From NCBI GenBank assembly GCA_964619815.1, contig CAZUGK010000001.1:22878-83793 (forward strand): a stretch of 60,916 nucleotides of DNA. Direction: 5' to 3'. Below the pieces are notes generated by a model. The model made no database searches. It was not told the origin of the DNA and saw only the letters and a program-made list of their open reading frames with translations. The position numbers and the translations under genes were made by a program. Of the stretch, positions 20,723 through 47,103 are shown piece after piece. Within the stretch, counting starts at the first letter, position 1, and every line of letters begins with the position of its first letter. The stretch comes from an uncultured Clostridiaceae bacterium. GTDB taxonomy: Bacteria; Bacillota; Clostridia; Lutisporales; Lutisporaceae.

Positions 20723-20919
20723 GTATTCCTAAAGAGTATGGTTGCGCGTTACGAGTTACGAGTTGCGCGTGTTAAGAATGGCTTTGGAGAGGGCTGTTAA
20801 AGGGAATTACAAAAGTTGGTTGCTAGAATACAAAATTCTGGCTAGAGAAAGACTTCGAAGGTATGCTTTAATCTCGAAACGCGAAACTCGAAACGCGTAA
20901 CGAAACTTAAGAGGAATAC
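20723..20919 (+). repeat. Long imperfect hairpin element with tandem-heptamer arms and CTTCGAAGG core (copy A)
   Basis: Outer stem GTATTCCT/AGGAATAC. 5' arm GTTGCGC GTTACGA GTTACGA GTTGCGC (20741-20768). Core GACTTCGAAGGTATGCTTTAATC (20851-20873). 3' arm TCGAAAC GCGAAAC TCGAAAC GCGTAAC (20874-20901). By hand, 20 of 25 arm positions pair. Confidence 0.7.
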
Positions 20920-22300: not shown

Positions 22301-23794
22301 ATGATAGGAATCAGACTTGAAAACCACGGTTATTACAATGAAACAGCGGATATTGTAAGAATGTATTTCGGAAAGTGCGAAATTGAAAGATCAGAAAAAG
22401 CTTTGGCAGATGACCAAAGCTTTTTGCAGGAATATGATGTTTTCATATTAAGCAGTCTCGAAATTAATGAGGAAAGCTGTACATGCACTTCTATGTACAT
22501 AGATAAGCAAAGACAGGAAAAAAGGACAGTAAAAAATAAAATAGAACTGACTAATGAAAAAGCATTGAAGCGTCTGGTAAAGAAGTCCATGTACAAGCTA
22601 TTGTCCGTAGTATTTGGAAGAGAATACCCATGGGGAATCCTTACAGGTATAAGACCTGTCAAAATAGTTCACGAGCTCATGGACAAAGGATTGTCAGAAG
22701 CTGTTATACCTGAGAGGCTGGTTGAAGAGTATCTCATGAGTGAGGATAGAGCTCGGCTGGCAGTTGAAATTGGCGGTATTGAAAGACCGTTTATATACCC
22801 GGTCAATGATGCTGCGGTAAGCATATACATAGGCATACCCTTTTGTCCAAGCCGGTGCCATTACTGTTCTTTCACTTCCAATTCAATAAGTACATACCGT
22901 ACTTATGTTGAGCCTTATCTGGAAAGCCTTATAAAGGAAGTGAGAAGTGTTTCTGAGTACCTGAGCAGCAAGAATTACAGGGTGCAAAGCATATATATCG
23001 GAGGAGGTACACCTACGTCCTTAAATGCAGAACAGCTTGAAAGGCTTATGCTGTGCATCAACCAATGTTTTGGAGATCAGGCTGATGAATTTACCTGCGA
23101 GGCTGGCAGGCCTGATTCCATTACCGAGGAAAAGCTGCAGGTACTGTTCGAGAATAATGTCGGTAGAATAAGCATAAATCCACAGACTATGAATGACGCT
23201 ACCCTGAAGTGTATCGGGAGGGCACACGATACCGGGCAGATTCTGGAAAGCTTCAGCTTAGCCCGGAATATCGGCTTTAATAATATCAATATGGACATTA
23301 TATTGGGACTTCCCGGAGAAACTATGGAGGAACTGGTTCATACACTGGAGGAGATAAAGAAGCTGGGTCCCGAGAACGTTACGGTACATACCATGGCAAT
23401 AAAGAGGGCTTCTTTGTATAATGAAGATTTTACAGGTAAGGCTATACCCAATGATGAGATCGTATCAAATATGATGGACTATACAAAAACCTTCCTTCGG
23501 GACATGGGCATGCACCCGTATTATTTGTACAGGCAGAAGCATATGCTTCAGAATATGGAGAATATCGGCTTTTCAAAGAAGGGTTTTGAATGCTTATACA
23601 ATATGCAGATAATTGAGGAGAAACAGACCAACGTTGCTTTTGGTGCAGATGCTGTAACCAAGATTGTAATAAGCAGCGAGAACAGGATAGAAAGGCAGCA
23701 CAATATAAAGGATGTAAAGCTTTATATAGAAAATATCGAAGCGATGATAAACAATAAACTGGATATTTTGGGACAGTTGGATAAAAAATATTGA
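22301..23794 (+). CDS. hemZ: Radical SAM coproporphyrinogen-dehydrogenase-like protein HemZ
   Basis: 497 aa. CPSRCHYCSF radical SAM triad, HemN-like core (IYIGGGTPTSL) and the long N-terminal extension typical of HemZ. The relA-dtd-MBL-hemZ order is common in Clostridia. Confidence 0.75.
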   Translation: MIGIRLENHGYYNETADIVRMYFGKCEIERSEKALADDQSFLQEYDVFILSSLEINEESCTCTSMYIDKQRQEKRTVKNKIELTNEKALKRLVKKSMYKLLSVVFGREYPWGILTGIRPVKIVHELMDKGLSEAVIPERLVEEYLMSEDRARLAVEIGGIERPFIYPVNDAAVSIYIGIPFCPSRCHYCSFTSNSISTYRTYVEPYLESLIKEVRSVSEYLSSKNYRVQSIYIGGGTPTSLNAEQLERLMLCINQCFGDQADEFTCEAGRPDSITEEKLQVLFENNVGRISINPQTMNDATLKCIGRAHDTGQILESFSLARNIGFNNINMDIILGLPGETMEELVHTLEEIKKLGPENVTVHTMAIKRASLYNEDFTGKAIPNDEIVSNMMDYTKTFLRDMGMHPYYLYRQKHMLQNMENIGFSKKGFECLYNMQIIEEKQTNVAFGADAVTKIVISSENRIERQHNIKDVKLYIENIEAMINNKLDILGQLDKKY

Positions 23795-23840
23795 CATATG
23801 TGCAACTCAATATTATAATATGTAATTATTATACAATAAC

Positions 23841-26766: not shown

Positions 26767-26858
26767 GGTCTTGTCACGAGCTACGAGCACCAAGCCGCGC
26801 TTCGAAGTCTTTGCATAAGCACGAGGCACGGGGCACGAAGCCCGAAGCCGGAAAGACT
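26767..26858 (+). repeat. Heptamer-repeat element with CTTCGAAG core (copy B, shorter/degenerate)
   Basis: Core CGCTTCGAAGTCTTTGCATAAGC (26798-26820) matches the copy C core at 18 of 23 positions by my count. It is followed by ACGAGGC ACGGGGC ACGAAGC CCGAAGC CGGAAAG (26821-26855). AAGTCTTT (26805-26812) pairs with AAAGACTT (26852-26859). Confidence 0.6.
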
Positions 26859-26901: not shown

Positions 26902-26955
26902 TTGACAAAATGCATAAGTGTTATATAATAGTATTAGAATACCGGTACGGGGTAT
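26902..26955 (+). promoter_or_regulatory. Sigma-A-type promoter plus CsoR-type operator
   Basis: TTGACA (26902-26907), 16 nt, TATAAT (26924-26929). Immediately downstream is ATACCGGTACGGGGTAT (26939-26955), a GC-tract pseudo-palindrome of the ATACC-N-GGTAT kind bound by CsoR-family repressors. Confidence 0.6.
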
Positions 26956-29673: not shown

Positions 29674-29718
29674 AAAGGTATGTTCAATTTAAATTCTTAC
29701 TTGAACATACCTTTGTTT
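29674..29718 (+). terminator. Rho-independent terminator after glyA
   Basis: AAAGGTATGTTCAA (29674-29687) / TTGAACATACCTTT (29701-29714), 14-bp stem, T-rich tail. It overlaps the spurious N-terminal extension of the next ORF in the track. Confidence 0.7.
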
Positions 29719-29736
29719 ATTGGGGTGTATGAAGCT

Positions 29737-31143
29737 ATGACGATGAATTATACCTATAAGTCAATAATTGATACTATACTGAAAAACATAGATATTGGGA
29801 TAAATGTTGTTGACGACACGGGAAAAACATTTATTTACAATCAGCCCATGGCGGATTTGGAAGGCCTTGATGTCAACGAAGTCATGGGGAAAAGCATTCT
29901 TGACATTTTCCCCAGCCTGACGCCGGAAACAAGTACGATGCTGACGGTGCTCAAAACCGGCAAGCCTATTTATGACAGGCATCAGACATATCTGAACAAT
30001 AAAGGAAAGCAGATAAATACAGTAAACAGCACAATTCCGATCATGATTGCGCCGGGAAAGTATGGAGCTCTTGAAATAGCAAAGAATATCACTAAAGAAA
30101 AGGAACTGAAGGAAAAACTTGTATATCTCCAGCAGGAGCTTGCCAGCAAAGATATTGACGATAAAAATCTCAAAGGTTATACTTTCAGGAATCTCATAGG
30201 TGAGGATGAGAAGTTTCTTAATACTGTGGAAATTGCAAAAAAGGCTGCGATGTCCTCTTCAACAGTGCTTATATTCGGTGAGACGGGTACAGGGAAAGAG
30301 TTGTTTGCGCAAAGCATACATAACGAAAGCAGCAGAAAGCACAAGCCATTCGTGGCGCAGAACTGTGCTGCACTGCCTGAGTCTCTTCTGGAAGGCATAC
30401 TTTTCGGAACTACAAAAGGAAGCTTTACTGGTGCTATAAACAGACCGGGACTTTTTGAACAGGCAAGTGGCGGAACGCTTCTGCTGGACGAGGTAAACTC
30501 AATGGGTCAACAGCTTCAGGCGAAGCTTTTGAGAGTGCTTCAGGAGGGATATGTGAGAAGGGTAGGGGGACTATCGGATATATCTGTTGATGTAAGAATT
30601 TTAGCAACAACTAATGAAGATCATTCAACCTTGCTTCAGAAGGGTATCCTGAGGAAAGACTTATATTACAGATTGAACGTAATATCGGTCAATATACCCT
30701 CCCTTAGAGAAAGAAAAGCCGATATTTCACTCCTGACTGACCATTTTATAAAGAAATATAACGGCATATTGCAGAAGGATGTGTGGTATGTATCCAATGA
30801 AGTGAAAGAGGCTTTCCAGCATTATGATTGGCCGGGAAATGTAAGGGAATTGGAAAATGTGATAGAAAGCGCCATAAACATGATAAACAGCGGTCACATC
30901 ATAAAGCCGGAACATATTTCTCCGGACATGCGTGAAATACTGTTCAAGTCTTACAAGAAAGAAAACAGCCTGAATTTCGACAAAAATCAATCTCTTGACA
31001 GTATACTTGAAGAGGTCGAAAAATCGCTGATAATGGAGGCTCTGCAGGAAAGCGGAAATAATATATCCAAAAGCTCGGAGCTGCTTGGTATAAAGCGGCA
31101 GACTCTGCAGCACAAACTGAAGAAATACGATATAAAGATATAG
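29737..31143 (+). CDS. Sigma-54-dependent transcriptional activator with N-terminal PAS domain and C-terminal Fis-type HTH
   Basis: PAS-like N-terminus. AAA+ sigma-54 interaction module (GETGTGKE, GSFTGA loop, LLLDEV, RVLQEG, WPGNVRELENV). C-terminal SKSSELLGIKRQTLQHKLKKY. Confidence 0.88.
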   Translation: MTMNYTYKSIIDTILKNIDIGINVVDDTGKTFIYNQPMADLEGLDVNEVMGKSILDIFPSLTPETSTMLTVLKTGKPIYDRHQTYLNNKGKQINTVNSTIPIMIAPGKYGALEIAKNITKEKELKEKLVYLQQELASKDIDDKNLKGYTFRNLIGEDEKFLNTVEIAKKAAMSSSTVLIFGETGTGKELFAQSIHNESSRKHKPFVAQNCAALPESLLEGILFGTTKGSFTGAINRPGLFEQASGGTLLLDEVNSMGQQLQAKLLRVLQEGYVRRVGGLSDISVDVRILATTNEDHSTLLQKGILRKDLYYRLNVISVNIPSLRERKADISLLTDHFIKKYNGILQKDVWYVSNEVKEAFQHYDWPGNVRELENVIESAINMINSGHIIKPEHISPDMREILFKSYKKENSLNFDKNQSLDSILEEVEKSLIMEALQESGNNISKSSELLGIKRQTLQHKLKKYDIKI

Positions 31144-32415: not shown

Positions 32416-33465
32416 ATGAGAAAAGAGAATGTTAAGGTAATTATCTGGGGTTTAGGCGCAATGGGCGGCGGAATCGCTGATTTGCTCCTCAAAAAGAAGG
32501 GCGTGGAGATTGTAGGTGCTGTAGGCAGAGGAGCCAAGATAGGCAAGAGCATGTATGACTACATAAAGACAGAAAGAGGCGACAGACCGGATGTTATAAT
32601 CGGTTCTTATGAGGATGTTATTAAAGAAAAAGCAGCCGATGTTGTTGTACTGTGCACAGACTCCTTTACAAGAAATGCTTTTGACAAGATAAAGTACTGC
32701 TTGGAGAAAAAGATCAATGTTGTATCCAGTGCAGAGGAAATGGCTTATCCTAAAGCTAAGGAACCGGAGCTTACAAAAGAATTGGATAAGATTGCAAAGG
32801 CTAATGGCGTAACAGTTCTCGGAACAGGTATAAATCCTGGACTCATGATGGATCTTCTTGTTGTAGCTTTCACCGGTGCATGTGAAGAAGTTGAGCATGT
32901 TGTTGCAAGGCGTGTAAACAGCTTGTCACCTTTCGGACCTGCAGTTATGGAAGAGCAAGGCATAGGCATTACAGTTGATGAATTCAAGAAGGGTGTTGAA
33001 ACAGGCAAGCTTGCAGGCCATGTAGGTTTTGCAGAATCGATAGGTATGATATCCGATGCTATAGGCTGGAAGCTAAGCGATTTCAATCAGACCATGGAGC
33101 CGATAGTTACTGAAGTTGACAGAAAGTCACCTTACGGCTTTGCAAAAGCAGGCGATGTTGCTGGCTGTGCAATGAAGGGTTACGGATACGTTGGCGGAGA
33201 GCTTAAGATAGAAATGGATCATCCGCAGCAGATAGAACCGCAGCTTGCCGGAGTTGAAACCGGTGATTATATAATAATAAAGGGAACACCTAACGTAAAC
33301 ATGGCCAACAAACCGGAAATACCCGGCGGAATTGGCACAATAGCAATGTGTGTAAATATGATACCTCACGTAATAAATGCAAGGCCCGGACTCAAGACTA
33401 TGATAGACCTTCCGGTACCAAGGGCAATTATGGGCGATATGAGGGAAATGATAGAAGAAGAATAG
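32416..33465 (+). CDS. ord: 2,4-diaminopentanoate dehydrogenase (copy 1)
   Basis: 349 aa. N-terminal Rossmann IIWGLGAMGGGIA, DapB-like fold. Close paralogue of the next gene. Heads the ort/ora cluster, as ord does in known ornithine fermenters. Confidence 0.82.
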   Translation: MRKENVKVIIWGLGAMGGGIADLLLKKKGVEIVGAVGRGAKIGKSMYDYIKTERGDRPDVIIGSYEDVIKEKAADVVVLCTDSFTRNAFDKIKYCLEKKINVVSSAEEMAYPKAKEPELTKELDKIAKANGVTVLGTGINPGLMMDLLVVAFTGACEEVEHVVARRVNSLSPFGPAVMEEQGIGITVDEFKKGVETGKLAGHVGFAESIGMISDAIGWKLSDFNQTMEPIVTEVDRKSPYGFAKAGDVAGCAMKGYGYVGGELKIEMDHPQQIEPQLAGVETGDYIIIKGTPNVNMANKPEIPGGIGTIAMCVNMIPHVINARPGLKTMIDLPVPRAIMGDMREMIEEE

Positions 33466-33619: not shown

Positions 33620-34669
33620 GTGGAAAATGTAAAGGTGGCAATTTGGGGATTTGGAGCAATGGGAAGCGGTATGGCAAGAATGATTCTTAATAAACAGGGA
33701 GTGGACATAGTCGGTGTATGCGATATGCATCCTGGCAGAGTAGGCAAGAGCATTTTTGAGGTTTTGAAAGAGGAAAAAGGCAGCAGACAAGATGTAATTA
33801 TTAAAGCAAATATTGATGAGGTAATATCAGAAGGAAGCTGTGACGTTTGCCTCTGTGCAACTGATTCCTATACTGAAAAAGCATTTCCGAAGCTTGCACA
33901 AGTTCTGAATAAGAAAATCAACGTAATATCAACAGCAGAAGAGATGTCATATCCTCAGGCTCAGAATCCTGAGCTTGCTGCCCAGTTGGATAAAATTGCA
34001 AAGAAAAATGGCGTGACAGTGCTTGGAACAGGTATTAATCCGGGACTTATAATGGATCTTCTGGTCGTATGCCTGACAGGCTGCATGACAAACGTTGAGC
34101 ATATTGAGGCTAAGAGGGTGAACAGTTTGTCACCTTTTGGCCATGCAGTTATGGAAGAGCAGGGAGTAGGTATTACTGTTGATGAATTCGAAAAGGGCGT
34201 AAAAAACGGAACGCTTGCCGGACATGTTGGCTTTGAAGAATCTGTAAGGATGATCGGCGATGCAATCGGCTGGGAGGTAGAAAAATTCGAACAGCAGATG
34301 AAACCAATTGTAACAAAGGTAGACAGAAAATCAACCTATGGGTTTGCAGCAGCCGGCAATGTTGCAGGTGTTAACATGACAGGCCAGGGCTATGTTGACG
34401 GAGAGGTAAAAATAGATATGATACATCCGCAGCAGATTGAGCCTGAAATGGAAGGGACTCAAACCGGAGATTATATTACAATAAAGGGTACTCCGGAGGT
34501 CAATATGTCAATAAAGCCTGAGGTGCAAGGCGGATTAGGCACTATTGCAATGTGCGTCAATATGATTCCTCAGGTTATAAATTCTGAGCCTGGACTTAAG
34601 ACTATGATTGATTTGCCTGTACCAAGAGCAATAATGGGTGATATGAGAAAGTTTATAAAGAAGAAATAA
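33620..34669 (+). CDS. ord: 2,4-diaminopentanoate dehydrogenase (copy 2)
   Basis: 349 aa. Colinear with copy 1 and roughly two-thirds identical by eye. GTG start after AAAAGGAG. Confidence 0.82.
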   Translation: MENVKVAIWGFGAMGSGMARMILNKQGVDIVGVCDMHPGRVGKSIFEVLKEEKGSRQDVIIKANIDEVISEGSCDVCLCATDSYTEKAFPKLAQVLNKKINVISTAEEMSYPQAQNPELAAQLDKIAKKNGVTVLGTGINPGLIMDLLVVCLTGCMTNVEHIEAKRVNSLSPFGHAVMEEQGVGITVDEFEKGVKNGTLAGHVGFEESVRMIGDAIGWEVEKFEQQMKPIVTKVDRKSTYGFAAAGNVAGVNMTGQGYVDGEVKIDMIHPQQIEPEMEGTQTGDYITIKGTPEVNMSIKPEVQGGLGTIAMCVNMIPQVINSEPGLKTMIDLPVPRAIMGDMRKFIKKK

Positions 34670-36794: not shown

Positions 36795-38999
36795 ATGAAA
36801 TTAGATCCTAACAAAAAGCTGGATATAAAGGAACTGCTTCAAGACCTTGAAAGCTACAGGCCAAGAAGAAGAGGCTGGCATTGGAGAGAGGGAAGAAATG
36901 AGAAGAGGATTATCGGAGACTTTGAATATCATGAAACCTCAGAAAGCCTGAAGAATTCTATTCCCCTGCCGGGAAGCCGCGGCTTCAATTATATAGATCC
37001 ACAGCCGGATTGTGTCATTACTACTGAAATAGCTTCAGGAAGGTTTGAAGACGATATAAGAAGAATGAGAATGGCAGCCTGGCATGGTGCAGACCATATA
37101 ATGGTTATAAGGACAGCAGGCCAGTCTCATATTGACTCTCTTATTGAAGGTACCACTCAGGGTATAGGCGGTATTGCTGTTACAAGAAAACAGTGCAGGG
37201 CTACTAGAAAAGCTCTCGATATGATAGAGGATGAAGTAGGAAGACCAATTAATTTCCATTCATATATTTCCGGCGTTGCAGGTCCTGATATAGCTGTAAT
37301 GTTTGCTGAAGAAGGAGTCAATGGAGCTCACCAGGATCCACAGTACAATGTATTATATAGAAATGTAAACATGGTCAGAAGCTTTGCTGATGCGTGTGAA
37401 GCAAAAAAAATCATGGCATGGGCAGATATATTGCAGATAGATGGAGCCCACAATGCCAATGCTACTGCAATGAAAGCCTGGAAGGTAAGACCGGAGCTTA
37501 TGGTTCAGCATGCCATAAACAGCATATTCTCAAGAAAGGTTGGCATCAAACCGGAGAATATAGCACTTTCTACAGTACCTCCGACAGCACCGCCGGCACC
37601 GCGTATGAGAATCGACCTTCCTTACGCCGTTGCACTGCGTGACTTCTTCAGCGAATACAAGATGAGGGCTCAGCAGAACACAAAATATATGGAATCAGAC
37701 ATGAGGGAAGCAACAGTTACACATACATTGGACCTCATGATTTCCAGACTTACAAGTGCTGATATACAGTCTACAATTACTCCTGATGAAGGAAGAAATG
37801 TTCCGTGGCATTACAACAACATAGCTGCGATCAACACAGCTAAGCAGGCTCTCGATGGGATGGACGGCTTAAGAGAAATGGTTAAGCTGGACAGGGAAGG
37901 GCCTTTAGGCAAGGAAGTAAGAGAGCTTAAAGAGAGAGCAGTACTCTTCATGGAAGAAATACTCGAAGTAGGCGGATACTTCAAAGCTGTTGAAAACGGC
38001 TTCTTCATAGACAGCGGTAACTATCCTGAAAGAAACGGCGATGGAATTCCAAGACAGATTGACGGCGGCATAGGCGTAGGCATGATATTTGAAAGAGATA
38101 AGGATTATTTTGCTCCTGTATCAGTTCACTACGGCTATAACAACATACCTGCAGAATTCAAGAAGGCTTCCGATGCTATAGGCGGGGATACCTTTGAAGA
38201 TCCTTCAAAGATTGTATATATTGACGAGCTTGACGAGTACGATAACGTAAACGTAAGACTCAAGGATCTTGAAAAATATTATGAGACAAACACTGTAAAA
38301 CCAGAGGTTGAGTGGAGAGCAGACGGAGTGGTTGCCACTACTATATTCCTCCCATTAGATGAAAGAACTGCAGAATTCGCAGCTATAAAATGCGGTGAAA
38401 AGCTTGGGCTTGAAGATGTGACGGTAGTCCATAAGCAGGCATTGCATCCTTCAGAGGGCACACTAGTTGAAATTAAGGGCAAAGTAAAATTTGACATTAA
38501 TGTTAACGAGCTGGTGATTCCGGAAAAGATTCCGGTAATGTCCGACGAAGAAATCAGAGATGACATCTCCGCAAAACCAATGTTTGTTGTAGCCGCTACT
38601 GTAGGAAACGATGAACACTCGGTCGGAATGAAGGAAACATTGGATATTAAACATGGTGGAATAGAAAAGTACGGTATAAAATACCTGTATCTCGGAACCT
38701 CCTGCCCGGTTGAAAAGCTTGTTGATGCAGCTATTGAGACTAATGCAGACGCAATATTGGCAAGTACAATCATTACTCATGATGACGTTCATGTGAAGAA
38801 CATGAGGAAGATACATGAGCTTTGCATAGAAAAGGGCATAAGAGACAAGGTAATGCTTGTTGTCGGAGGAACACAGGTTACCAACGAAATTGCTGTGGAA
38901 GCAGGTATGGATGCAGGCTTCGGCAGAGGCACCCACGGCAATGACGTAGCAAGCTTCCTTGTCAAGAGAAGAAGGGAAAAGCAGAACAATGAAAATTAG
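36795..38999 (+). CDS. oraE: D-ornithine 4,5-aminomutase large subunit (B12- and PLP-dependent)
   Basis: 734 aa. TIM-barrel N-terminal part and a C-terminal B12-binding Rossmann domain with the base-off DxHxxG-type motif (GNDEHSVG). Confidence 0.9.
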   Translation: MKLDPNKKLDIKELLQDLESYRPRRRGWHWREGRNEKRIIGDFEYHETSESLKNSIPLPGSRGFNYIDPQPDCVITTEIASGRFEDDIRRMRMAAWHGADHIMVIRTAGQSHIDSLIEGTTQGIGGIAVTRKQCRATRKALDMIEDEVGRPINFHSYISGVAGPDIAVMFAEEGVNGAHQDPQYNVLYRNVNMVRSFADACEAKKIMAWADILQIDGAHNANATAMKAWKVRPELMVQHAINSIFSRKVGIKPENIALSTVPPTAPPAPRMRIDLPYAVALRDFFSEYKMRAQQNTKYMESDMREATVTHTLDLMISRLTSADIQSTITPDEGRNVPWHYNNIAAINTAKQALDGMDGLREMVKLDREGPLGKEVRELKERAVLFMEEILEVGGYFKAVENGFFIDSGNYPERNGDGIPRQIDGGIGVGMIFERDKDYFAPVSVHYGYNNIPAEFKKASDAIGGDTFEDPSKIVYIDELDEYDNVNVRLKDLEKYYETNTVKPEVEWRADGVVATTIFLPLDERTAEFAAIKCGEKLGLEDVTVVHKQALHPSEGTLVEIKGKVKFDINVNELVIPEKIPVMSDEEIRDDISAKPMFVVAATVGNDEHSVGMKETLDIKHGGIEKYGIKYLYLGTSCPVEKLVDAAIETNADAILASTIITHDDVHVKNMRKIHELCIEKGIRDKVMLVVGGTQVTNEIAVEAGMDAGFGRGTHGNDVASFLVKRRREKQNNEN

Positions 39000-40341
39000 T
39001 GTACTGGTAGCTGAGATTGGCAGCACCACTACAGTAGTTAATGCATTTGACAGGATTATGAGCCCTTGTCCGAAATTCATCGGGCAAGGGCAAGCTCCTA
39101 CTACGGTGCTTAATGGTGATGTAACCGTAGGACTTAGAGGTGCTGTAGATGACCTAAAGAGGAACCTGGGAGAGACAGAGCTTACGTGGGATGAATTCCT
39201 TGCAACCAGCAGCGCGGCAGGGGGCCTTAGGATGACAGTCCACGGCCTTGTATATGATATGACGGTAAGGGCTGCAAAGGAGGCTGCACTGGGTGCAGGA
39301 GCGATAATCAAGCATGTTACGGCAGGAAAACTAAGAAGAACAGACCTGAAGAAGATTGAGGAAATAAGGCCCAATATTATATTGGTTGCAGGGGGAGTAG
39401 ACTACGGTGAAAGGGACACCGCCCTGCACAATTTTGAAATGATAGCATCCATGGGTCTCAATATTCCTGTAATATATGCAGGTAATATTGAGAATCAGGA
39501 GGAAGTTAGGCTGATTGCAGAAGAAACCGGTACAAGGCTTTATTTAGTGGAGAATGTTTACCCAAAGGTTGACATGCTTAATGTAGAACCTACCAGAAAA
39601 GTCATTCAGGAGGTTTTTGAAGAGCATATTATACATGCACCCGGGATGAGCACAGTAAGAGATATGGTGAAGGGACCGATTATACCAACACCTGGAGCGG
39701 TAATGGAAGCCGCGAAGCTTCTTAAGGAGTATTTGGGTGACCTTGTTGTATTCGATGTAGGAGGTGCAACAACGGATGTCCACTCAGTTACAGAAGGCTC
39801 GGAAGAAGTAAATTTGATGCTTATAAGCCCCGAACCTGTAGCGAAGAGAACTGTTGAAGGAGATCTGGGAGTATATGTGAACCTTGAACATATAGTGGAG
39901 AAGATAGGCTTGGAAAACCTGAAAAAGGAATTCCCGGATGCAGAAGAGCTTATAAAAAATAAAAAGCCAATTCCTGAGACAGACAGGGAAAAACAGTTTA
40001 TCGAAAGTCTGACCAAAGAGGCCGTACTTACATCTTTGGAACGTCATGCGGGCAGACTCAGATACTTGTATGGTCCTAGCGGAAAAAAGACGGTCGCAGA
40101 GGGAAAGGACCTTACTAATATTAAGTATGTTATTGGAACCGGAGGAGCCTTAACAAGACTTCCTAACCGGATTGAAATACTGAAGGCAGTCGGACTGTAC
40201 TCAAAAGGAACGGAGCTGTATCCTGGAAAGGAAGCTAAGATACTGGTTGACAACCATTATATAATGGCTTCCCTGGGAGTGCTCTCCAAAAGATTCCCGG
40301 AAGCGGCACTGGAGCTTATGAAGCAAAGTATGCAAATCTAG
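38989..40341 (+). CDS. GlmL/MutL-like (glutamate mutase reactivase-type) ATPase, probable aminomutase reactivase
   Basis: MKISVLVAEIGSTTTVVNAF... and DVGGATTDVHS, ASKHA/actin-like ATPase motifs of the MutL (glutamate mutase) family. ATG 38989 overlaps the oraE end. Confidence 0.72.
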   Translation: MKISVLVAEIGSTTTVVNAFDRIMSPCPKFIGQGQAPTTVLNGDVTVGLRGAVDDLKRNLGETELTWDEFLATSSAAGGLRMTVHGLVYDMTVRAAKEAALGAGAIIKHVTAGKLRRTDLKKIEEIRPNIILVAGGVDYGERDTALHNFEMIASMGLNIPVIYAGNIENQEEVRLIAEETGTRLYLVENVYPKVDMLNVEPTRKVIQEVFEEHIIHAPGMSTVRDMVKGPIIPTPGAVMEAAKLLKEYLGDLVVFDVGGATTDVHSVTEGSEEVNLMLISPEPVAKRTVEGDLGVYVNLEHIVEKIGLENLKKEFPDAEELIKNKKPIPETDREKQFIESLTKEAVLTSLERHAGRLRYLYGPSGKKTVAEGKDLTNIKYVIGTGGALTRLPNRIEILKAVGLYSKGTELYPGKEAKILVDNHYIMASLGVLSKRFPEAALELMKQSMQI

Positions 40342-40354
40342 CTTTGCTGGATAT

Positions 40355-40461
40355 GAGTCACTAGTCACTAGTAGCCAGACACTAGAATTTAGGCAGAGCT
40401 TCGAAGGCATTGCTTAATCTAGAGACTAGAGACTAGGAACTAGAGACTGGAGACTAGTTAG
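40355..40461 (+). repeat. Heptamer-arm hairpin element with CTTCGAAGG core (copy C), inside the ornithine operon
   Basis: 5' arm GAGTCAC TAGTCAC TAGTAGC CAGACAC TAGAA (40355-40387). Core AGCTTCGAAGGCATTGCTTAATC (40397-40419). 3' arm TAGAGAC TAGAGAC TAGGAAC TAGAGAC TGGAGAC TAG (40420-40457). By hand, 23 of 32 arm positions pair. Confidence 0.7.
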
Positions 40462-40476
40462 GAGGTGAGGTGAATT

Positions 40477-41538
40477 ATGAGTTATCCTGCTATAAGAGTT
40501 GATTTGAAAAAGCTTACGCACAACACTAAAGTGTTGGTGGAGAAGTGCGGCAGGCTTGGAATTGATATAGTACCCGTAACAAAGGTATACTGCGGAATGC
40601 CGGAAATAGCCAGGGCATCTGTAGCTGCCGGAGTAAAAATGCTTGCTGACTCAAGAATTGAGAATATCATCAAGCTGAAGGGTCTGGATGTGACTAAGGT
40701 GCTGCTTAGGATTCCGATGCTGTCGCAGGTTGATGAAATAGTTGAGCATGTAGATATCAGTCTTAACTCAGAGTATAAAGTGATAAAAGCCCTCTCCGAT
40801 AGGGCACAGGAAAAGGGGAAGGTTCATAAGATAGTACTTATGGTAGACCTTGGCGACCTTAGAGAAGGGGTTTGGTACGAGACAGCAGTTGAATTTGCAG
40901 GAAGAATAATGGAGCTGCAGGGCGTAAGGCTTGTAGGAGTAGGAACGAATCTTACCTGCTACGGAGCGGTTATTCCAAGCAGGAAGAACCTTGGCCAGCT
41001 GGTTGCTGTAGCAGAGGAGATTGAAAAAAAATATAATGTCAAGCTGGATATAATCTCCGGAGGAAACTCAAGCAGCATACACCTTATAGAAAAGAATGAG
41101 GTTCCGCAAAGAGTCAACCAGCTAAGACTTGGTGAAGCGATAGTACTGGGGAATGAAACTGCATACGGGGAAAGAATAGAAGGTACTCATGCCGACGTAT
41201 TCACATATATGGCTGAAATAATAGAGCTTAAGGAAAAGCCCTCCGTTCCCACAGGAGAGACAGGAGTTGACGCTTTCGGCGAGAAACCGGTATTTACTGA
41301 CAGAGGCATCAGGAAAAGAGCCATTCTGGCTTCCGGAAGGCAGGACCTGAAGGTAGACGGCATAACGCCCAGAGACAAGGCTGCAATCGTAATAGGAGCC
41401 AGCAGCGATCATTTGATTGTTGACGTAAGCGACTGCGGGAAGGAGTACCAGGTAGGAGACATAATGGAGTTTGACATGAGCTATGGTGCATTGCTTGCAG
41501 CCTTCACATCAGAGTATGTGGATAAGGTAATAGAATAA
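40477..41538 (+). CDS. orr: Ornithine racemase (alanine racemase-fold PLP enzyme)
   Basis: 353 aa. N-terminal PLP-barrel with VPVTKV (Lys), YhfX/alanine racemase N-terminal-domain type. Position at the end of the ord-ort-ora cluster. Confidence 0.78.
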   Translation: MSYPAIRVDLKKLTHNTKVLVEKCGRLGIDIVPVTKVYCGMPEIARASVAAGVKMLADSRIENIIKLKGLDVTKVLLRIPMLSQVDEIVEHVDISLNSEYKVIKALSDRAQEKGKVHKIVLMVDLGDLREGVWYETAVEFAGRIMELQGVRLVGVGTNLTCYGAVIPSRKNLGQLVAVAEEIEKKYNVKLDIISGGNSSSIHLIEKNEVPQRVNQLRLGEAIVLGNETAYGERIEGTHADVFTYMAEIIELKEKPSVPTGETGVDAFGEKPVFTDRGIRKRAILASGRQDLKVDGITPRDKAAIVIGASSDHLIVDVSDCGKEYQVGDIMEFDMSYGALLAAFTSEYVDKVIE

Positions 41539-41622: not shown

Positions 41623-43482
41623 GTGAGGGCACATTTGAGAAAAAGGATTGCAGTTCCGGCGATATTTCTGATTATATGTGCGTTGCTGGTCACCGTAAGT
41701 GCATATTGCGACGAGGATAGAAGCTACTACATGAGCAGCTTCAGGGTAAATGTACAGTTGGACAGCTTGGGGAATATGGATATCATGGAGAAAATAACCT
41801 ATGAGTTCGACGGCAGCTTCAGAGGTGTGTACAGGACGATCAAGACAGCAGGAAGTGACGGCTTAGACGCTATTGAGGTTTATAGGCTTCAGAACGGAGA
41901 GACGGTGCAGCTTACAAATGACAACTCCGAAAGGGAAGACACTTTTCAGTTGATAGATGAAGACAATGGCATAATGTTGAAAATATTCTCTGCAGCAAAA
42001 GATGCCAGCAGGACCTTTATCATAAAATACAGGGTTATAAACGCAGCGGTAAAGTACAATGATATTGGAGAGCTTTACTGGCAGTTTATGGGCAAAGACA
42101 CGGATGTGCTAATCGAGAACTTTGACTTGAAAATTACACTTCCGGAAGGAGCAGGCAAAGAGCAGATAAAAATCTTCGGACACGGTCCTCTATCCGGGGT
42201 ATCGGAAATAATCGATTCTCAAAATGTGAGCTTCAAGGTTGAAAAGCTTCCGCCTCACAACTTTGTTGAAGCAAGAGTGCTTTTTCCCAAAAGCCTTATT
42301 GAAGCTTCGACGAATACAGTGAAAGAGGCTGCCTTTGACAGGATAATGTCTGAGGAAAAGGGTTTTGCCGGCGAGGCTAATGCAAGAAGGGCGAGAGCAA
42401 GGGCAGCTGTTGGATTTTCACTGGTTTACGCATTATTTGAACTGTTGATGATTGCATATTTGTATTTCAAATACGATAAAGAATACAAGACAAAATTCAT
42501 GGGGCAGTATTTCAGGGAGCTTCCGGGAAATTACTCACCTGCAGTCCTCTCGGTGCTTTGGAATTTCGGATATGTGGAACCTAGGGACATTACTGCTACA
42601 TTAATGGATCTGGTAAGACGGAAATACTTAAAGCTCATAGTCGAACAGCAGGAAAACGGTGGGCTTTTTAAGAAAAGTATTGAAAATGAATATATCTTTG
42701 AGTTGAACAAGGAAGCTGACATGGAAGCTCTTTCTTCTCATGAGAAGCATCTTGTCAAATGGCTGGTATCAAAAAACGGACAGGTTGAAAGGGTATCACT
42801 TAATGATATCGAAAAGGCCGCCAAAACCCAAAAAGGAGCGGAAAGATTCAAAGAAGATTATGATACATGGGTTGATTATGTGAAAGCTGAAGCAGATGGA
42901 TTATCCTTCTTTGACAAAAATTCTCTGAAGGGCAAGATCTTCGGTATTGTTTTCGCTTTGGCAGGGCTTGCATATGGATTCTATACAGCCATACTTCATG
43001 GAAATACAGTCGGATTTGTTTTGCTGCTGGTTGTTTCATTCATACTTATAATATACTGTTTGATTATACGAAGAAGGTCAAGATATGGTGCTGAACAGTT
43101 CAAGATGTGGAAGGCTTTCAGGAGATTCCTCAAACATTTCAGCAGGCTTGATAAGGCAGATTTGCCTGCAGTGACCCTTTGGGAGCATTACCTTGTATAT
43201 GCAATTACCTTGGGAGTGGCAAAGGAGGTCATAAAGCAGTTGAGACTTGTTTTCAGCGAAGAAGATTTCAAAAATTCGGCTCTGACATATATGTACTATG
43301 GGCATTATGGTCATAATTACAACCATTTTGATACCATAGACAATGTTACAAATGCAATGGTGAAGACAACGGAATCCGTATATACGGAAGCAATGTCAAA
43401 AATGTCCTCAAGCAGCGGAGGGGGAGGAGGCTTCTCCGGCGGCGGAGGCGGAGGCGGTGGAGGCGGAGCCGGTGCATTTTAG
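41623..43482 (+). CDS. DUF2207 domain membrane protein with Gly-rich C-terminal tail
   Basis: 619 aa. Signal/TM, extracellular beta-rich domain, 3 TM segments, and the terminal SSSGGGGGFSGGGGGGGGGGAGAF typical of DUF2207. Paired with LemA, as is usual. Confidence 0.75.
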   Translation: MRAHLRKRIAVPAIFLIICALLVTVSAYCDEDRSYYMSSFRVNVQLDSLGNMDIMEKITYEFDGSFRGVYRTIKTAGSDGLDAIEVYRLQNGETVQLTNDNSEREDTFQLIDEDNGIMLKIFSAAKDASRTFIIKYRVINAAVKYNDIGELYWQFMGKDTDVLIENFDLKITLPEGAGKEQIKIFGHGPLSGVSEIIDSQNVSFKVEKLPPHNFVEARVLFPKSLIEASTNTVKEAAFDRIMSEEKGFAGEANARRARARAAVGFSLVYALFELLMIAYLYFKYDKEYKTKFMGQYFRELPGNYSPAVLSVLWNFGYVEPRDITATLMDLVRRKYLKLIVEQQENGGLFKKSIENEYIFELNKEADMEALSSHEKHLVKWLVSKNGQVERVSLNDIEKAAKTQKGAERFKEDYDTWVDYVKAEADGLSFFDKNSLKGKIFGIVFALAGLAYGFYTAILHGNTVGFVLLLVVSFILIIYCLIIRRRSRYGAEQFKMWKAFRRFLKHFSRLDKADLPAVTLWEHYLVYAITLGVAKEVIKQLRLVFSEEDFKNSALTYMYYGHYGHNYNHFDTIDNVTNAMVKTTESVYTEAMSKMSSSSGGGGGFSGGGGGGGGGGAGAF

Positions 43483-43525: not shown

Positions 43526-44092
43526 TTGACTACAATTATTATCATTGTTGTACTGTTGCTGCTTGTATTGTTTGTAATCAGCATTTACAACAATCTTGTC
43601 GCAAAGAGAAACAGGGTCAGAAATGCATGGGCGCAAATAGATGTGCAGCTAAAGAAAAGATTTGACCTGATACCGAACCTTGTTGAAACGGTGAAGGGCT
43701 ATGCTAAGCATGAAGCAGGTACTATGGAAGCGATTGTCAAGGCCAGGAACCAGTATATAAGCGCAGGTACTCCCCAGGAAATGATGAAAGCAAATACCGA
43801 AATGACAGGGGCACTGAGCAGATTGTTCGCACTGGCTGAAAGCTATCCGGATTTGAAAGCGAATAGCAACTTCATGGAGCTTCAGAGGGAATTGACGGAT
43901 GTGGAGGAGAAGATAGCCTACGCAAGACAGTTCTACAATGATACGGTAATGATGTACAACAATGCAATACAGATGGTTCCTTCAAACATAGTCGCGAATA
44001 TGACCGGCTTCAAGGCAGAGCCGTTCTTCAAGGCAGAGCCGTTCTTCAAGGCAGATGAAACTGAAAAGCAGAATGTGAAGGTGCAGTTTTAA
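43526..44092 (+). CDS. lemA: LemA family protein
   Basis: N-terminal TM, then [43 protein letters not shown], the LemA signature. Contains an in-frame 18-bp tandem duplication near the 3' end. Confidence 0.88.
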
Positions 44093-45525: not shown

Positions 45526-47103
45526 CTACTTAAAGAATTCTCCTATCTTTTTAAACAGGCTGTTATATTTGTATGGTGCATTGCTATCCTCGTCTACTAC
45601 CTCCCCGGCAATCTGTGAGGTCTTTTTTCCCGAACCTGAAAATGCCTGCTTTCCATTTCCTGCTGTCTCAATATTTGCTTCATTTTCCTTGGAGAGCTCA
45701 CCGGATGCTGCATTGACGCCAGGCCTGCCTACGTAGGTAGTTATATGCTCCTGATTTAACAACAGAGTTTCATAATTAGGTAGCTTTTCACTTTTCATGA
45801 ATTTTTCCTTGAAATTGCTTTTTTTAAGCGGTGCCATATCCAAGATGCCATTTAAAGCAGGCTTTGGCTTTGCCGGGAAGAGTTCTTTCATCTCTGCCTC
45901 AGGAGCTTTCTGAACAAAGGTTTTGCTCTCAAGGTTATCAATCCGGCTATTCAATAGTTGGACATTCTCTGACAGACCTTTTATTTCATTAAGAATCTGT
46001 TTCAAATAGTCATTCATTTCAGTTGAAACCTCAGCCTGGGGCTTTTCTTTCTGTTTATCCTCTGCGGCAATTTTTGTTGTATGCTCCAGGGGTCTTAATA
46101 TATTGTAATCCTTGTCAAGTATGAAGTATCCTTTTGATATTGCAATAGAGCCTGTATTTCGTATGCATTTGATCACTCGTATATTGGTTTCTGCTGTTAT
46201 AGGCAGATCAATAGCTTTTTTCCATTTGCCGGAGGAATCCTCAAGGGTGTACTGATGAAAGACATAGTCTTTTATCCATGCAAGCTGCAGGGATTTATCA
46301 TCGGCGTAGAACAAGGGTATTACGCCACCGGTATCAACAAGAGAATTGTTCAGTTCCTTAAAATCTATTTCACTGCTTCCTGAAGACTTGCTCAAGAAAT
46401 GATGAATATTGCTTGCTTCACTTTCATTGGAAAAACTGAGCAGGTTAATTTTCTTATTATGGCTTATAAGTTTAATGGATACCTGGTTTTTGTAAGAAAT
46501 GTTCAGGCTCTTGTGAATCCATGACTTGATTGAGTCATCGAAACAATAATAGTTAATATAGTATAGGGTTCCGTCATACCAAACACTTGCGTAATGTATG
46601 CTGCCGCCTTTTAAGGGAAGTATGGAAAAAGAGCTTTCAATATTCTGCGAGTATATTTCAGATAAGCTGTTCTTTCTCCAGGAATACTCTATATAAGGAA
46701 CTTGCTCGTTAATATTCTTGTGGATGTGATATACGTTGTACATATTGGCGACAGGCAGCTTTTTTGAAAAAAATATATGTATGGAGCCGTTCTGTACTAC
46801 CATATCCATAATATATATATTGGCGCTGTTGTGTTGATTTACAACAGCTTCAAATTTCCAGCCGGAATTGGTATATATAAAAAGCAGAATCCCCTTGTAC
46901 CTGCTGCTGCAAGCAAGATAAACCGCATCATCTGTGTCAATAGCTGCTGCGAAGTCGGCATTGGCCTGGCTTATGAGTATGGTATCCTTTGTATCTCCGG
47001 CGCCGGAAACCTCTCTGTAATATATGGAGGTATCCTTGTAATAGAACAAATACTTGCTGCCTTTAGAATCCTCCAGTATTATTGATGGCTTTATATCTAT
47101 CAT
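45526..47103 (-). CDS. Hypothetical 525-aa protein (beta-rich N-terminal ~340 aa, coiled-coil, low-complexity tail)
   Basis: Good RBS (GGGTGGTG) before ATG. No signal peptide or TM. Central coiled-coil NDYLKQILNEIKGLSENVQLLNSRIDNLESK. No family recognised. Confidence 0.6.
   Translation of the reverse strand: MIDIKPSIILEDSKGSKYLFYYKDTSIYYREVSGAGDTKDTILISQANADFAAAIDTDDAVYLACSSRYKGILLFIYTNSGWKFEAVVNQHNSANIYIMDMVVQNGSIHIFFSKKLPVANMYNVYHIHKNINEQVPYIEYSWRKNSLSEIYSQNIESSFSILPLKGGSIHYASVWYDGTLYYINYYCFDDSIKSWIHKSLNISYKNQVSIKLISHNKKINLLSFSNESEASNIHHFLSKSSGSSEIDFKELNNSLVDTGGVIPLFYADDKSLQLAWIKDYVFHQYTLEDSSGKWKKAIDLPITAETNIRVIKCIRNTGSIAISKGYFILDKDYNILRPLEHTTKIAAEDKQKEKPQAEVSTEMNDYLKQILNEIKGLSENVQLLNSRIDNLESKTFVQKAPEAEMKELFPAKPKPALNGILDMAPLKKSNFKEKFMKSEKLPNYETLLLNQEHITTYVGRPGVNAASGELSKENEANIETAGNGKQAFSGSGKKTSQIAGEVVDEDSNAPYKYNSLFKKIGEFFK

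What the first reader, a model, noticed from the sequence alone, without database searches (positions are those of the whole stretch)
40355..40461. Copy C sits inside the ornithine operon: arm sequence is completely different from copy A but still self-complementary
This copy lies between the reactivase-like gene and orr. The same core, AGCTTCGAAGGCATTGCTTAATC (40397-40419), is flanked by a 5' arm GAGTCAC TAGTCAC TAGTAGC CAGACAC TAGAA (40355-40387). The 3' arm is TAGAGAC TAGAGAC TAGGAAC TAGAGAC TGGAGAC TAG (40420-40457). Pairing 40386-40355 with 40418-40449 gives 23 Watson-Crick pairs out of 32 by my count, with mismatches recurring roughly once per heptamer. The heptamers here (CTAG-based) share nothing with those of copy A (CGNNAC-based). 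The architecture is nevertheless preserved: arm, then core, then complementary arm directly after TAATC. That is the signature of selection on structure rather than on sequence. The element ends at the orr RBS (AGGAGG 40460-40465). If transcribed, it could set the relative expression or stability of orr versus the upstream cistrons, or it could occlude the RBS.
Basis: seen in the sequence. Interest (0 to 1): 0.72.

Follow-up and report, generated by a model that had tools for sequence, protein, structure and literature searches.

The report
Dispersed hairpin repeat with heptamer arms
The hairpin in front of the ornithine racemase gene is real, but it is one copy of a repeat scattered through the intergenic DNA of a narrow group of uncultured Clostridia (two inverted runs of 7-base units around a small conserved core), not a control device built for that gene.

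Summary

- Copy C is one of three copies in the window. Copy A (20738-20906) lies between relA and dtd. Copy B (26768-26857) follows a ThiF-family gene.
- At least a dozen more copies occur in related uncultured Clostridia MAGs.
- All copies share one plan: a 5' array of 7-nt units, a ~30-nt core tipped by the palindrome CTTCGAAG, then a complementary 3' array.
- The arms of A and C are not unrelated. GTTACGA and GTCACTA differ at two positions, and both differences are compensated in the 3' arm.
- There are at least three arm classes. One class occurs at different loci in different genomes, and different classes occupy the same locus.
- Copies lie in both orientations relative to genes. Half-elements and empty sites exist.
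- At the MutL-like/orr junction, about 5 of 13 relatives carry the element.
- Covariation supports selection for foldability.
- Predicted Shine-Dalgarno accessibility is the same with and without the element. It contains no promoter or terminator.

Best reading: a REP/MITE-like foldback repeat whose arms change by slippage. Its RNA hairpin is a generic by-product. The closest analogue is the cyanobacterial STRR heptamer hairpin. There is no Rfam match.

The parts
40355..40387 (+). Copy C, 5' arm: GAGTCAC TAGTCAC TAGTAGC CAGACAC TAGAA (class II units, consensus GTCACTA)
   Evidence: Sequence; pairs with the 3' arm at 23/32 WC; within covariance-model hit 40354-40451, 87.7 bits (this copy was a training sequence)
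40388..40419 (+). Copy C, core. An inner helix (TTAGGCAG / TTGCTTAA) carries the apex palindrome CTTCGAAG (40399-40406). The core ends in TTAATC.
   Evidence: Fold; CTTCGAAG occurs only 3 times in the window, each at the centre of one copy
40420..40457 (+). Copy C, 3' arm: TAGAGAC x5.6. It stops 2 nt before the orr Shine-Dalgarno AGGAGG (40460-40465).
   Evidence: TRF period 7, 5.6 copies; sequence
20738..20906 (+). Copy A (long form), between relA/spoT and dtd. Layout: 5' arm 20740-20771 (GTTGCGC/GTTACGA); CTTTGGAG 20782-20789; 63-nt insert 20790-20852; CTTCGAAG 20853-20860; 3' arm 20874-20906 (TCGAAAC/GCGAAAC).
   Evidence: Sequence; fold -62.8 kcal/mol, z -4.9; found by the model although not in its training set, 44.4 bits, E 1.8e-8, + strand only
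26768..26857 (+). Copy B (class III arms, weakly pairing), after the stop of a ThiF-family gene and upstream of the csoR-like promoter. Layout: 5' arm 26768-26799; CTTCGAAG 26800-26807; 3' arm about 26819-26857.
   Evidence: Sequence; fold z -1.2; model hit 66.4 bits; consensus promoter at 26902-26929
38959..40341 (+). Upstream gene: MutL/GlmL-like (reactivase-like) protein
   Evidence: Pfam PF13941, E 2e-171
40477..41538 (+). Downstream gene: orr (ornithine racemase, alanine racemase N-terminal fold)
   Evidence: Pfam PF01168; homologues named 'ornithine racemase Orr' by their sources

Best explanation
Copy C is a member of a lineage-restricted, dispersed, hairpin-forming intergenic repeat. 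It is of the REP/MITE-like 'foldback' kind, with a conserved ~30-nt core (apex CTTCGAAG) and two arms that are inverted arrays of 7-nt units.

Shown:
- The family exists at many intergenic sites.
- It has at least three arm classes that differ by compensated substitutions.
- One class occurs at different loci in different genomes, and different classes occupy one locus.
- Copies lie in both orientations relative to the flanking genes.
- Unit number varies between orthologous copies.
- Half-elements, collapsed remnants and empty sites exist.

Inferred:
- The arms grow, shrink and homogenise by replication slippage in 7-nt steps.
- Only foldable copies are propagated or retained, which keeps the two arms complementary.
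- Copies are spread or overwritten between sites, either by an unidentified enzyme acting on the folded single strand or by gene conversion.
- When the ord-orr operon is read through, copy C becomes a stable imperfect RNA hairpin between the MutL-like stop codon and the orr ribosome-binding site. It probably acts only as a generic stem-loop, that is, a barrier to exonucleases or a processing site. It is not an orr-specific switch.
For: Family and layout:
- Three copies in the window share the arm-core-arm plan.
- Further copies occur in L001, L002, L007, L012, L017, L021, L027, L028 and L029.
- The covariance model recovers non-training copies: window A and L027-ThiF at 44 bits each. It finds nothing in about 190 kb of more distant relatives.

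Arm classes and dispersal:
- Cross-pairing matrix.
- Window A (relA-dtd), L027 (ThiF-csoR) and L021 (LemA-mgsA, reverse strand) align over arms and core.
- The ThiF-csoR site holds class III in the window and L028 but a class I long form in L027.

Presence and absence:
- The MutL-like/orr junction is filled in the window, L002, L021 and L012 (a variant), half-filled in L017, and empty in L001, L004, L005, L007, L009, L011, L018 and L022.
- Carriers are not monophyletic on an orr tree.
- The LemA site is empty in the window, L005 and L017, and filled elsewhere.

Other points:
- Structure and covariation.
- Density is about 1 copy per 7-20 kb inside the clade: 3 in 61 kb in the window and 6 in 43 kb on the L028+L002 contig.
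- There are none in the Lutispora-like L037, L038 and L039.
- Shine-Dalgarno accessibility is unchanged by the element.
- No promoter or terminator lies in it.
- No Rfam family matches.
Against: - No transposase or other mobilising gene was found. None is in the window, and whole genomes could not be searched.
- No target-site duplication is visible when filled and empty sites are compared.
- Copy number per genome is extrapolated from about 350 kb of sampled DNA, not counted.
- Orientation is constant within each locus even when the arm class differs. This fits replacement by gene conversion as well as it fits transposition.
- Some flanking sequence and arm class are conserved at the orr junction between genomes whose orr genes are only about 78-80% identical. 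This hints at some constraint there.
- As DNA the copy C hairpin is weak (-14 kcal/mol, z -2.5), whereas as RNA it is strong. An RNA-level role is therefore not excluded.
Confidence: 0.6

Rival explanations
1. Host-selected RNA hairpins. The family is kept because, once transcribed, each copy works as an intercistronic or 3'-end stem-loop. Such a stem-loop could set segmental mRNA stability, uncouple neighbouring cistrons or help termination. This role has been proposed for E. coli REPs and for cyanobacterial STRR hairpins. Copy C would then tune orr relative to the upstream cistrons.
For: - All copies lie just downstream of stop codons, in spacers between co-directional genes.
- RNA folds are strong for several copies, with z down to -6.3.
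- Sites that lack the element often carry another small hairpin or terminator instead: L001 and L004 junctions, the L038 relA-dtd spacer, and an L011 remnant with a U-tract.
- Compensatory changes maintain the fold.
- PMC2670836 proposes transcript stability or translational coupling for 7-bp-repeat hairpins between hupS and hupL.
Against: - Several copies fold no better than shuffled controls on the transcribed strand: L028 and L029 relA-dtd, window B, L012.
- Half-elements lacking a 3' arm persist (L017, L027).
- Close relatives do without the element at the same junctions.
- G-U versus A-C counts do not favour the transcribed strand, about 40 vs 33 (my tally).
- Predicted Shine-Dalgarno exposure is unchanged.
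Confidence: 0.22
2. A dedicated cis-regulator of orr. The hairpin would occlude the orr ribosome-binding site or set orr translation or stability specifically.
For: - The 3' arm ends 2 nt before the Shine-Dalgarno.
- The element is present at the same junction in L002, L021 and L012.
Against: - The same element type occurs next to unrelated genes.
- 8 of 13 related orr loci lack it, including two where the MutL-like gene and orr overlap or abut.
- In silico Shine-Dalgarno pairing is the same with and without it. In the model the Shine-Dalgarno pairs with downstream UAUCCU, not with the element.
Confidence: 0.06
3. A periodic protein-binding platform. The 7-nt units, in DNA or in folded RNA/ssDNA with regularly spaced purine-purine mismatches, would be the repeated recognition sites of an unknown multimeric or repeat protein, with the palindromic apex as a dimer site.
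For: - Invariant C...G positions recur every 7 nt across all arm classes.
- Mismatches cluster in one phase and are mostly A-A, A-G or G-A in the element's own orientation.
- The 8-nt palindrome at the apex is invariant.
Against: - No candidate protein was identified.
- The mismatch phase is a tendency, not a rule. L027-ThiF pairs 22 of 24.
- Unit sequences differ between classes, so one protein would need loose specificity.
Confidence: 0.08
4. Independent local origin. Each hairpin arose in place from a small terminator-like stem by slippage expansion of 7-nt units, with no dispersal between loci.
For: - Heptamers are reported as the commonest long simple-sequence repeats in bacteria and are attributed to polymerase slippage (Mrazek 2007, as summarised in PMC4679880).
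- Collapsed or short versions look like ordinary terminators (L011).
Against: - All copies share a homologous core: apex CTTCGAAG, then WTAAKC before the 3' arm.
- Near-identical arm and core combinations occur at three different loci.
- The model built on short forms finds long forms elsewhere.
Confidence: 0.04

Closest known systems
Cyanobacterial STRR (short tandemly repeated repetitive) heptamer hairpins, e.g. in the hupS-hupL spacer of Nostoc/Anabaena
   Same: Both have 7-bp units repeated in tandem that can fold into a hairpin, sit between genes of one operon or just after a gene, and are dispersed over many intergenic sites. Function is unknown; transcript stability, translational coupling or termination have been proposed (PMC2670836).
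   Different: The phylum differs (Clostridia vs filamentous cyanobacteria), and so do the unit sequences. Here the two arrays always flank a conserved core with the palindromic apex CTTCGAAG. Arm classes with compensated substitutions and a long form with a ~60-nt insert have not been described for STRR as far as I could read.
REP/BIME elements (repetitive extragenic palindromes) and their RAYT transposases
   Same: Both are abundant imperfect palindromes confined to intergenic DNA and found in either orientation. Both come as sequence classes within a genome, lack target duplications, and have been proposed to stabilise mRNA or act at 3' ends.
   Different: REPs are 20-40 bp with a terminal GTAG or CGTC tag (PMC3733652). 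These elements are about 95-170 nt, have tandem-repeat arms, and show no such tag. Association with a RAYT gene could not be examined.
Bacterial MITEs with modular structure (pneumococcal BOX, RUP; Correia; ERIC; Chunjie)
   Same: Both are non-coding, hairpin-forming, inserted within operons without disrupting genes, and variable in the number of internal modules (from my own knowledge of these families).
   Different: MITE copies are alike over their whole length and usually carry terminal inverted repeats of a parent IS plus target duplications. Here only the core is conserved, the arms are 7-nt arrays, and no duplication or parent IS was seen.
Eukaryotic Foldback transposons (Drosophila FB, Galileo)
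   Same: The inverted arms are built from short tandem repeats, and their number varies between copies (PMC3688188 abstract; my own knowledge).
   Different: Foldback transposons are eukaryotic and kilobase-scale, with a known transposase in some. There the centre is variable and the arms are conserved, which is the reverse of this element.
Intergenic TAACTGA heptamer direct repeats of Beggiatoaceae, cyanobacteria and Bacteroidetes
   Same: Both are short arrays of a heptamer a few nucleotides upstream of start codons in many unrelated genes, with function unknown (PMC4679880).
   Different: Those are direct arrays of one fixed heptamer (one indirect repeat among 170 sets), with no partner array and no core.

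Membership tests
Any Rfam 15 RNA family | Score at or above the family's gathering threshold | tested here: not met
   No hit in the whole window at gathering thresholds. At E<=10 on 40300-40500 there are only sub-threshold generic-hairpin matches, for example miRNA precursors at 17 bits against a threshold of 63.
REP (repetitive extragenic palindrome) | 20-40 bp imperfect palindrome | tested here: not met
   Elements span about 95-170 nt.
REP | Conserved terminal GTAG or CGTC tag | tested here: not met
   No conserved tag at either end in the 10-copy alignment. The only invariant columns are the periodic C/G positions and the apex.
REP | High copy number (>100 per genome), intergenic only | tested here: inconclusive
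   All copies are intergenic. Density is about 1 per 7-20 kb in the sampled loci, but no whole genome could be scanned.
REP | Cognate RAYT (Y1 HUH transposase) gene flanked by the repeats | not testable with these tools
   No transposase among the window proteins scanned. The genomes of the carriers are available only as 20-kb loci.
MITE | Terminal inverted repeats | tested here: met
   The arms are inverted complements: 23/32 WC in copy C, and 65% of cells paired family-wide.
MITE | Target-site duplication flanking the insertion | tested here: not met
   Comparing filled and empty LemA-mgsA and MutL-like/orr sites shows no direct repeat at the borders.
MITE | Parent autonomous IS sharing the termini | not testable with these tools
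Cyanobacterial STRR | Tandem 7-bp units in intergenic DNA, able to form hairpins | tested here: met
   TRF period 7; hairpins.
Cyanobacterial STRR | Occurrence in heterocystous or filamentous cyanobacteria with the STRR unit sequences | tested here: not met
   The hosts are Clostridia/Lutisporaceae-like MAGs. The unit consensus here is C-K-R-G-N-N-N. That STRR units differ from this is from my memory of STRR1-3, not tested.
Intrinsic (Rho-independent) terminator | G+C-rich stem followed by a U-tract | tested here: not met
   No terminator-like site in 40200-40600. The 3' arm of copy C is followed by GTTAGGAGG. Some relatives' copies (L001, L011 at the LemA site) do have a T-run.
Gene-specific cis-regulatory RNA of orr | Conserved at the orthologous position across genomes that carry the gene | tested here: not met
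   Present in 4 of 13 related orr loci and half-present in 1. Absent in 8, and absent in all more distant ones.

The most novel reading that the evidence does not exclude
This is a previously undescribed class of bacterial foldback mobile element. Its arms are heptamer arrays that an unknown single-strand-specific enzyme reads in the folded state. The regularly spaced purine-purine mismatches mark the active strand, much as extrahelical bases do in integron attC sites or IS200/IS605 ends. The CTTCGAAG apex, or the ~60-nt insert of the long form, would be the processing or recognition site.
Probability: 0.2. Interest if true: 0.7.

Novelty: new variant of a known kind. Interest (0 to 1): 0.45.

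Why it matters
If the reading is right, hairpins like this one should be annotated as copies of a repeat family, not as operon-specific regulators. The finding also extends a long-unexplained pattern, hairpins made of tandem 7-nt units that until now was described mainly in cyanobacteria, to anaerobic Firmicutes. Here it comes with a conserved core that makes the family searchable.

The family offers a compact natural case of concerted evolution. Whole arms switch unit sequence while staying complementary. Because the hairpins sit inside conserved operons (relA-dtd, ord-orr), they give a direct test of whether such repeats affect mRNA fate. The practical reach is limited, because carriers are uncultured and the family appears confined to a narrow clade.

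Tried and rejected
- Rfam at gathering thresholds on the whole window, and at E<=10 around copy C: nothing meaningful.
- Exact-sequence look-up of the window's Orr, and of the 100%-identical P0001, to find the source contig: not on record.
- Genome and metagenome scans with Orr returned only 9 and 11 loci, so the taxonomic breadth rests on those plus the RelA-centred loci.
- Viral-contig scan for apex plus class I 3' units: 4 hits, all chance matches in coding-like G+C-rich DNA.
- blastn of copy C against plasmids and of copy A against phages: no match.
- Search for target-site duplications at filled versus empty sites: none seen.
- Search for a transposase among window ORFs: none.
- Deciding RNA versus DNA from G-U/A-C asymmetry and from + versus - strand folding energies: inconclusive. 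There are 46 G-U against 27 A-C in the element's own orientation, mostly in the shared core and so not independent. The transcribed strand shows about 40 against 33. Folding energies favour the + strand in four copies and the - strand in four.
- Idea that the heptamers supply stop codons in all frames: true for copy C (TAG every 7 nt) but not for classes I and III, so rejected as a general feature.
- Idea that position 4 of every unit is always mismatched: downgraded to a tendency after L027-ThiF paired 22 of 24.
- Literature searches for a named Clostridial element of this design found none. REP surveys read do not mention Clostridia or heptamers.

Full report
**1. The observation**

- Pairing 40386-40355 with 40418-40449 gives 23 Watson-Crick pairs of 32.
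- TRF scores the 3' arm as 5.6 copies of a 7-nt unit.
- As RNA, 40350-40460 forms one long imperfect hairpin of -36.3 kcal/mol, with z = -4.0 and 0 of 200 dinucleotide shuffles as good.
- The suggested range 40340-40480 gives -43.6 kcal/mol, z = -3.0.
- Pfam confirms the context: ord, ortB, oraE, a MutL/GlmL-like gene (38959-40341), then orr (40477-41538).

Two statements do not hold.
- The 23-nt 'same core' is unique in the window even with three mismatches allowed. Copy A matches it at 17 of 23 positions by my count, and only the palindrome CTTCGAAG is exact in all three copies.
- The arms of A and C are related. GTTACGA and GTCACTA differ at two positions, and the 3' units TCGAAAC and TAGAGAC differ at exactly the two complementary positions.

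**2. What it is**

CTTCGAAG occurs three times in the window, each at the centre of an arm-core-arm element.
- Copy A lies between relA/spoT and dtd (20738-20906).
- Copy B follows a ThiF-family gene and precedes a consensus promoter for a csoR-like gene (26768-26857).
- Copy C is the finding.

To compare other genomes I fetched loci around Orr and RelA homologues. The source is an uncultured Clostridia lineage; neighbours are labelled Clostridia, Clostridiaceae or Lutisporaceae MAGs.

Related elements occur at four recurrent spacers.
- MutL-like/orr: L002, L021, L012 (a variant with apex CTTCGATG), and L017 (5' arm and apex only).
- relA-dtd: L028 and L029/L032. L027 has about ten direct units and no partner arm.
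- ThiF-csoR: L028, L029 (degenerate), and L027 (long form).
- LemA-mgsA: L001, L002, L021 and L007.
- Single sites: L002 after orr, L028 after SHMT, and L012.

A covariance model built from ten short-form copies recovers window A and L027-ThiF, which were not in its training set, at 44 bits each. It finds no further copy in the window. It finds nothing in L004, L005, L009, L011, L014, L015, L018 or L037-L039. Relatives with RelA at 76-89% identity, including a Lutispora thermophila-like contig, have short spacers and no elements. The family is therefore confined to a narrow clade. Inside that clade it is dense, about one copy per 7-20 kb of sampled DNA.

**3. Anatomy**

In the alignment of ten copies the invariant columns are the apex and a C and a G recurring every 7 nt in each arm. 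The 5' unit is C-K-R-G-N-N-N and the 3' unit is its complement.

On a hairpin structure written over that alignment:
- 65.2% of cells pair, against 27.6-36.2% when the 3' partners are slid by 1-3 columns.
- 19 of 32 arm pairs show compensatory double changes.
- 46 cells carry such changes, against 27.4 +/- 4.0 in shuffles (0 of 500 shuffles reach the observed value).
- The covariation score is 0.266, against 0.169 +/- 0.018.

Mismatches tend to recur in one phase of the heptamer (32 of 72). In the element's own orientation they are mostly purine-purine. This is not absolute: L027-ThiF pairs 22 of 24.

A long form also exists (window A and L027-ThiF). In it a ~60-nt insert lies between CTTTGGAG/CTATGGAG and CTTCGAAG, and these two octamers pair with each other. 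A deletion between the two CTT triplets would give the short-form apex; this is my inference.

**4. Evidence that it is a dispersed, exchanging repeat**

Cross-pairing every 5' arm with every 3' arm sorts the copies into at least three classes.
- Class I, GTTNCGM/KCGNAAC: window A, L028 and L029 at relA, L027 at ThiF, L021 at LemA.
- Class II, GTCNCTA/TAGNGAC: window C and the L002 and L021 orr junctions.
- Class III, GCCACGR/ACGARGC: window B, L028 at ThiF, L001 at LemA.

Several observations point to dispersal and turnover.
- Class I copies at three different loci in three genomes align over arms and core.
- One locus carries different classes in different genomes. ThiF-csoR has class III in the window and L028 but class I in L027. 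LemA-mgsA has class I, class III and a GGTNCGR type.
- By core homology and model score, the LemA copies lie on the strand opposite to the flanking genes. The others lie on the gene strand.
- Unit number differs between orthologous copies. At the orr junction the 3' arm has about 5.6 units in the window, about 3 in L002 and 2 in L021.
- In L028 and L029 the whole 5' arm reads GATNCGA where the 3' arm calls for GTTNCGA. This is a concerted, uncompensated change.
- L011 keeps only the outermost units of a class III-like hairpin, followed by a T-run. That makes it an ordinary-looking terminator.
- Fold quality ranges from z = -6.3 to z = -0.7.
- On an orr tree, carriers at the orr junction are not monophyletic.

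Together this is the behaviour of a REP/MITE-like family with turnover and decay. It is not the behaviour of a conserved regulator.

**5. What copy C does to orr**

- The element contains no promoter-like or terminator-like site.
- In a partition-function fold of 40300-40520, the orr Shine-Dalgarno bases have the same low unpaired probability with the element and with 40355-40457 removed. In the model they pair with downstream UAUCCU, not with the element.
- Eight of thirteen related orr loci lack the element. In several of these the MutL-like gene and orr overlap or are about 55 nt apart.

An orr-specific role is therefore unlikely. A generic role is plausible by analogy with REPs and with cyanobacterial STRR hairpins: a stable stem-loop between cistrons acting as an exonuclease barrier or processing site (PMC2670836). 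It is untested.

**6. RNA or DNA?**

This remains undecided.
- Folding energies favour the + strand in four copies and the - strand in four.
- G-U exceeds A-C by 46 to 27 in the element's own orientation, mostly in the shared core and so not independent. On the transcribed strand it is only about 40 to 33.
- As DNA, copy C folds weakly (-14.1 kcal/mol, z -2.5).
- The + strand is the leading strand by skew, with GC skew +0.14 to +0.21.
- No mobilising gene and no target duplication were found.

**7. Comparison with what is known, and verdict**

- There is no Rfam family, no match in phage or plasmid collections, and none in viral contigs.
- It fails the size and tag criteria of REPs (PMC3733652) and the target-duplication criterion of MITEs.
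- The closest described phenomenon is the cyanobacterial STRR hairpin of 7-bp repeats between hupS and hupL and elsewhere. Its function is also unknown.
- Intergenic heptamer arrays are also known as TAACTGA direct repeats.
- What I did not find described is the conserved palindromic-apex core flanked by inverted heptamer arrays, the compensated arm classes, and the occurrence in Clostridia.

I rate it a new variant of a known kind. The hairpin is real and the family is unusual, but the proposed link to orr is not supported.

Noticed in passing
window 44008-44055: A perfect 18-nt tandem repeat (2.7 copies, CTTCAAGGCAGAGCCGTT) lies inside the 3' end of the LemA-family gene (43526-44092). It would add an in-frame 6-residue repeat. 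LemA is 188 aa here against 181 aa in relatives.
   Followed up: no
L001 11110-11300 (spacer after orr): A nested hairpin whose arms are tandem 9-10-nt units (CCACGGAAT... / ...ATTCAGTGG), set inside a pair of heptamer arrays (GCCTCGT x2 ... CCTCGTAACCACGAAAC). This lineage therefore makes repeat-armed hairpins with other periods too.
   Followed up: partly
L027 12155-12260 (relA-dtd spacer): About ten direct GGTACGG/GGTTCGA-type heptamers with no apex and no inverted partner, followed by two small unrelated G+C-rich hairpins. Heptamer arrays can persist alone.
   Followed up: partly
L028 20970-21004, L029 20998-21019, L012 9915-9936, L018 about 13650-13720: A further unit type (GGCAATA/GGGCAAT and its complement ATTGCCC) occurs as arrays or degenerate hairpins at several sites. 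It suggests a fourth arm class that the covariance model does not score.
   Followed up: partly
window 23791-23819 and 26902-26929: Two perfect 12/12 sigma-70-type promoter matches (TTGACA, 16-17 nt spacer, TATAAT). The second lies about 45 nt downstream of copy B, in front of the csoR-like gene.
   Followed up: no
window 45526-47103 (- strand): A 525-aa ORF with no Pfam match. A 525-residue gene with no Pfam hit occupies the same position in L001 and L004, and a 514-residue one in L002.
   Followed up: no
window 32416-33465 and 33620-34669: Two adjacent 349-aa ORFs. The second is a 2,4-diaminopentanoate dehydrogenase by Pfam. Relatives also carry two DAP_DH_C genes in tandem, so ord appears duplicated in this lineage. 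A sigma-54 activator (29680-31143) lies upstream.
   Followed up: partly
window 40477-41538 / protein P0001: The homology search lists a 100%-identical Orr (P0001, NCBI, 83.8-kb contig). The exact-sequence contig look-up finds no record for either it or the window's own translation, so the source contig could not be retrieved.
   Followed up: yes
window 43438-43474: A 15-nt repeat (GGCGGTGGAGGCGGA, 2.5 copies) at the 3' end of the DUF2207 membrane-protein gene, encoding a glycine-rich tail. A similar GGAGGCGGA repeat occurs in L001.
   Followed up: no
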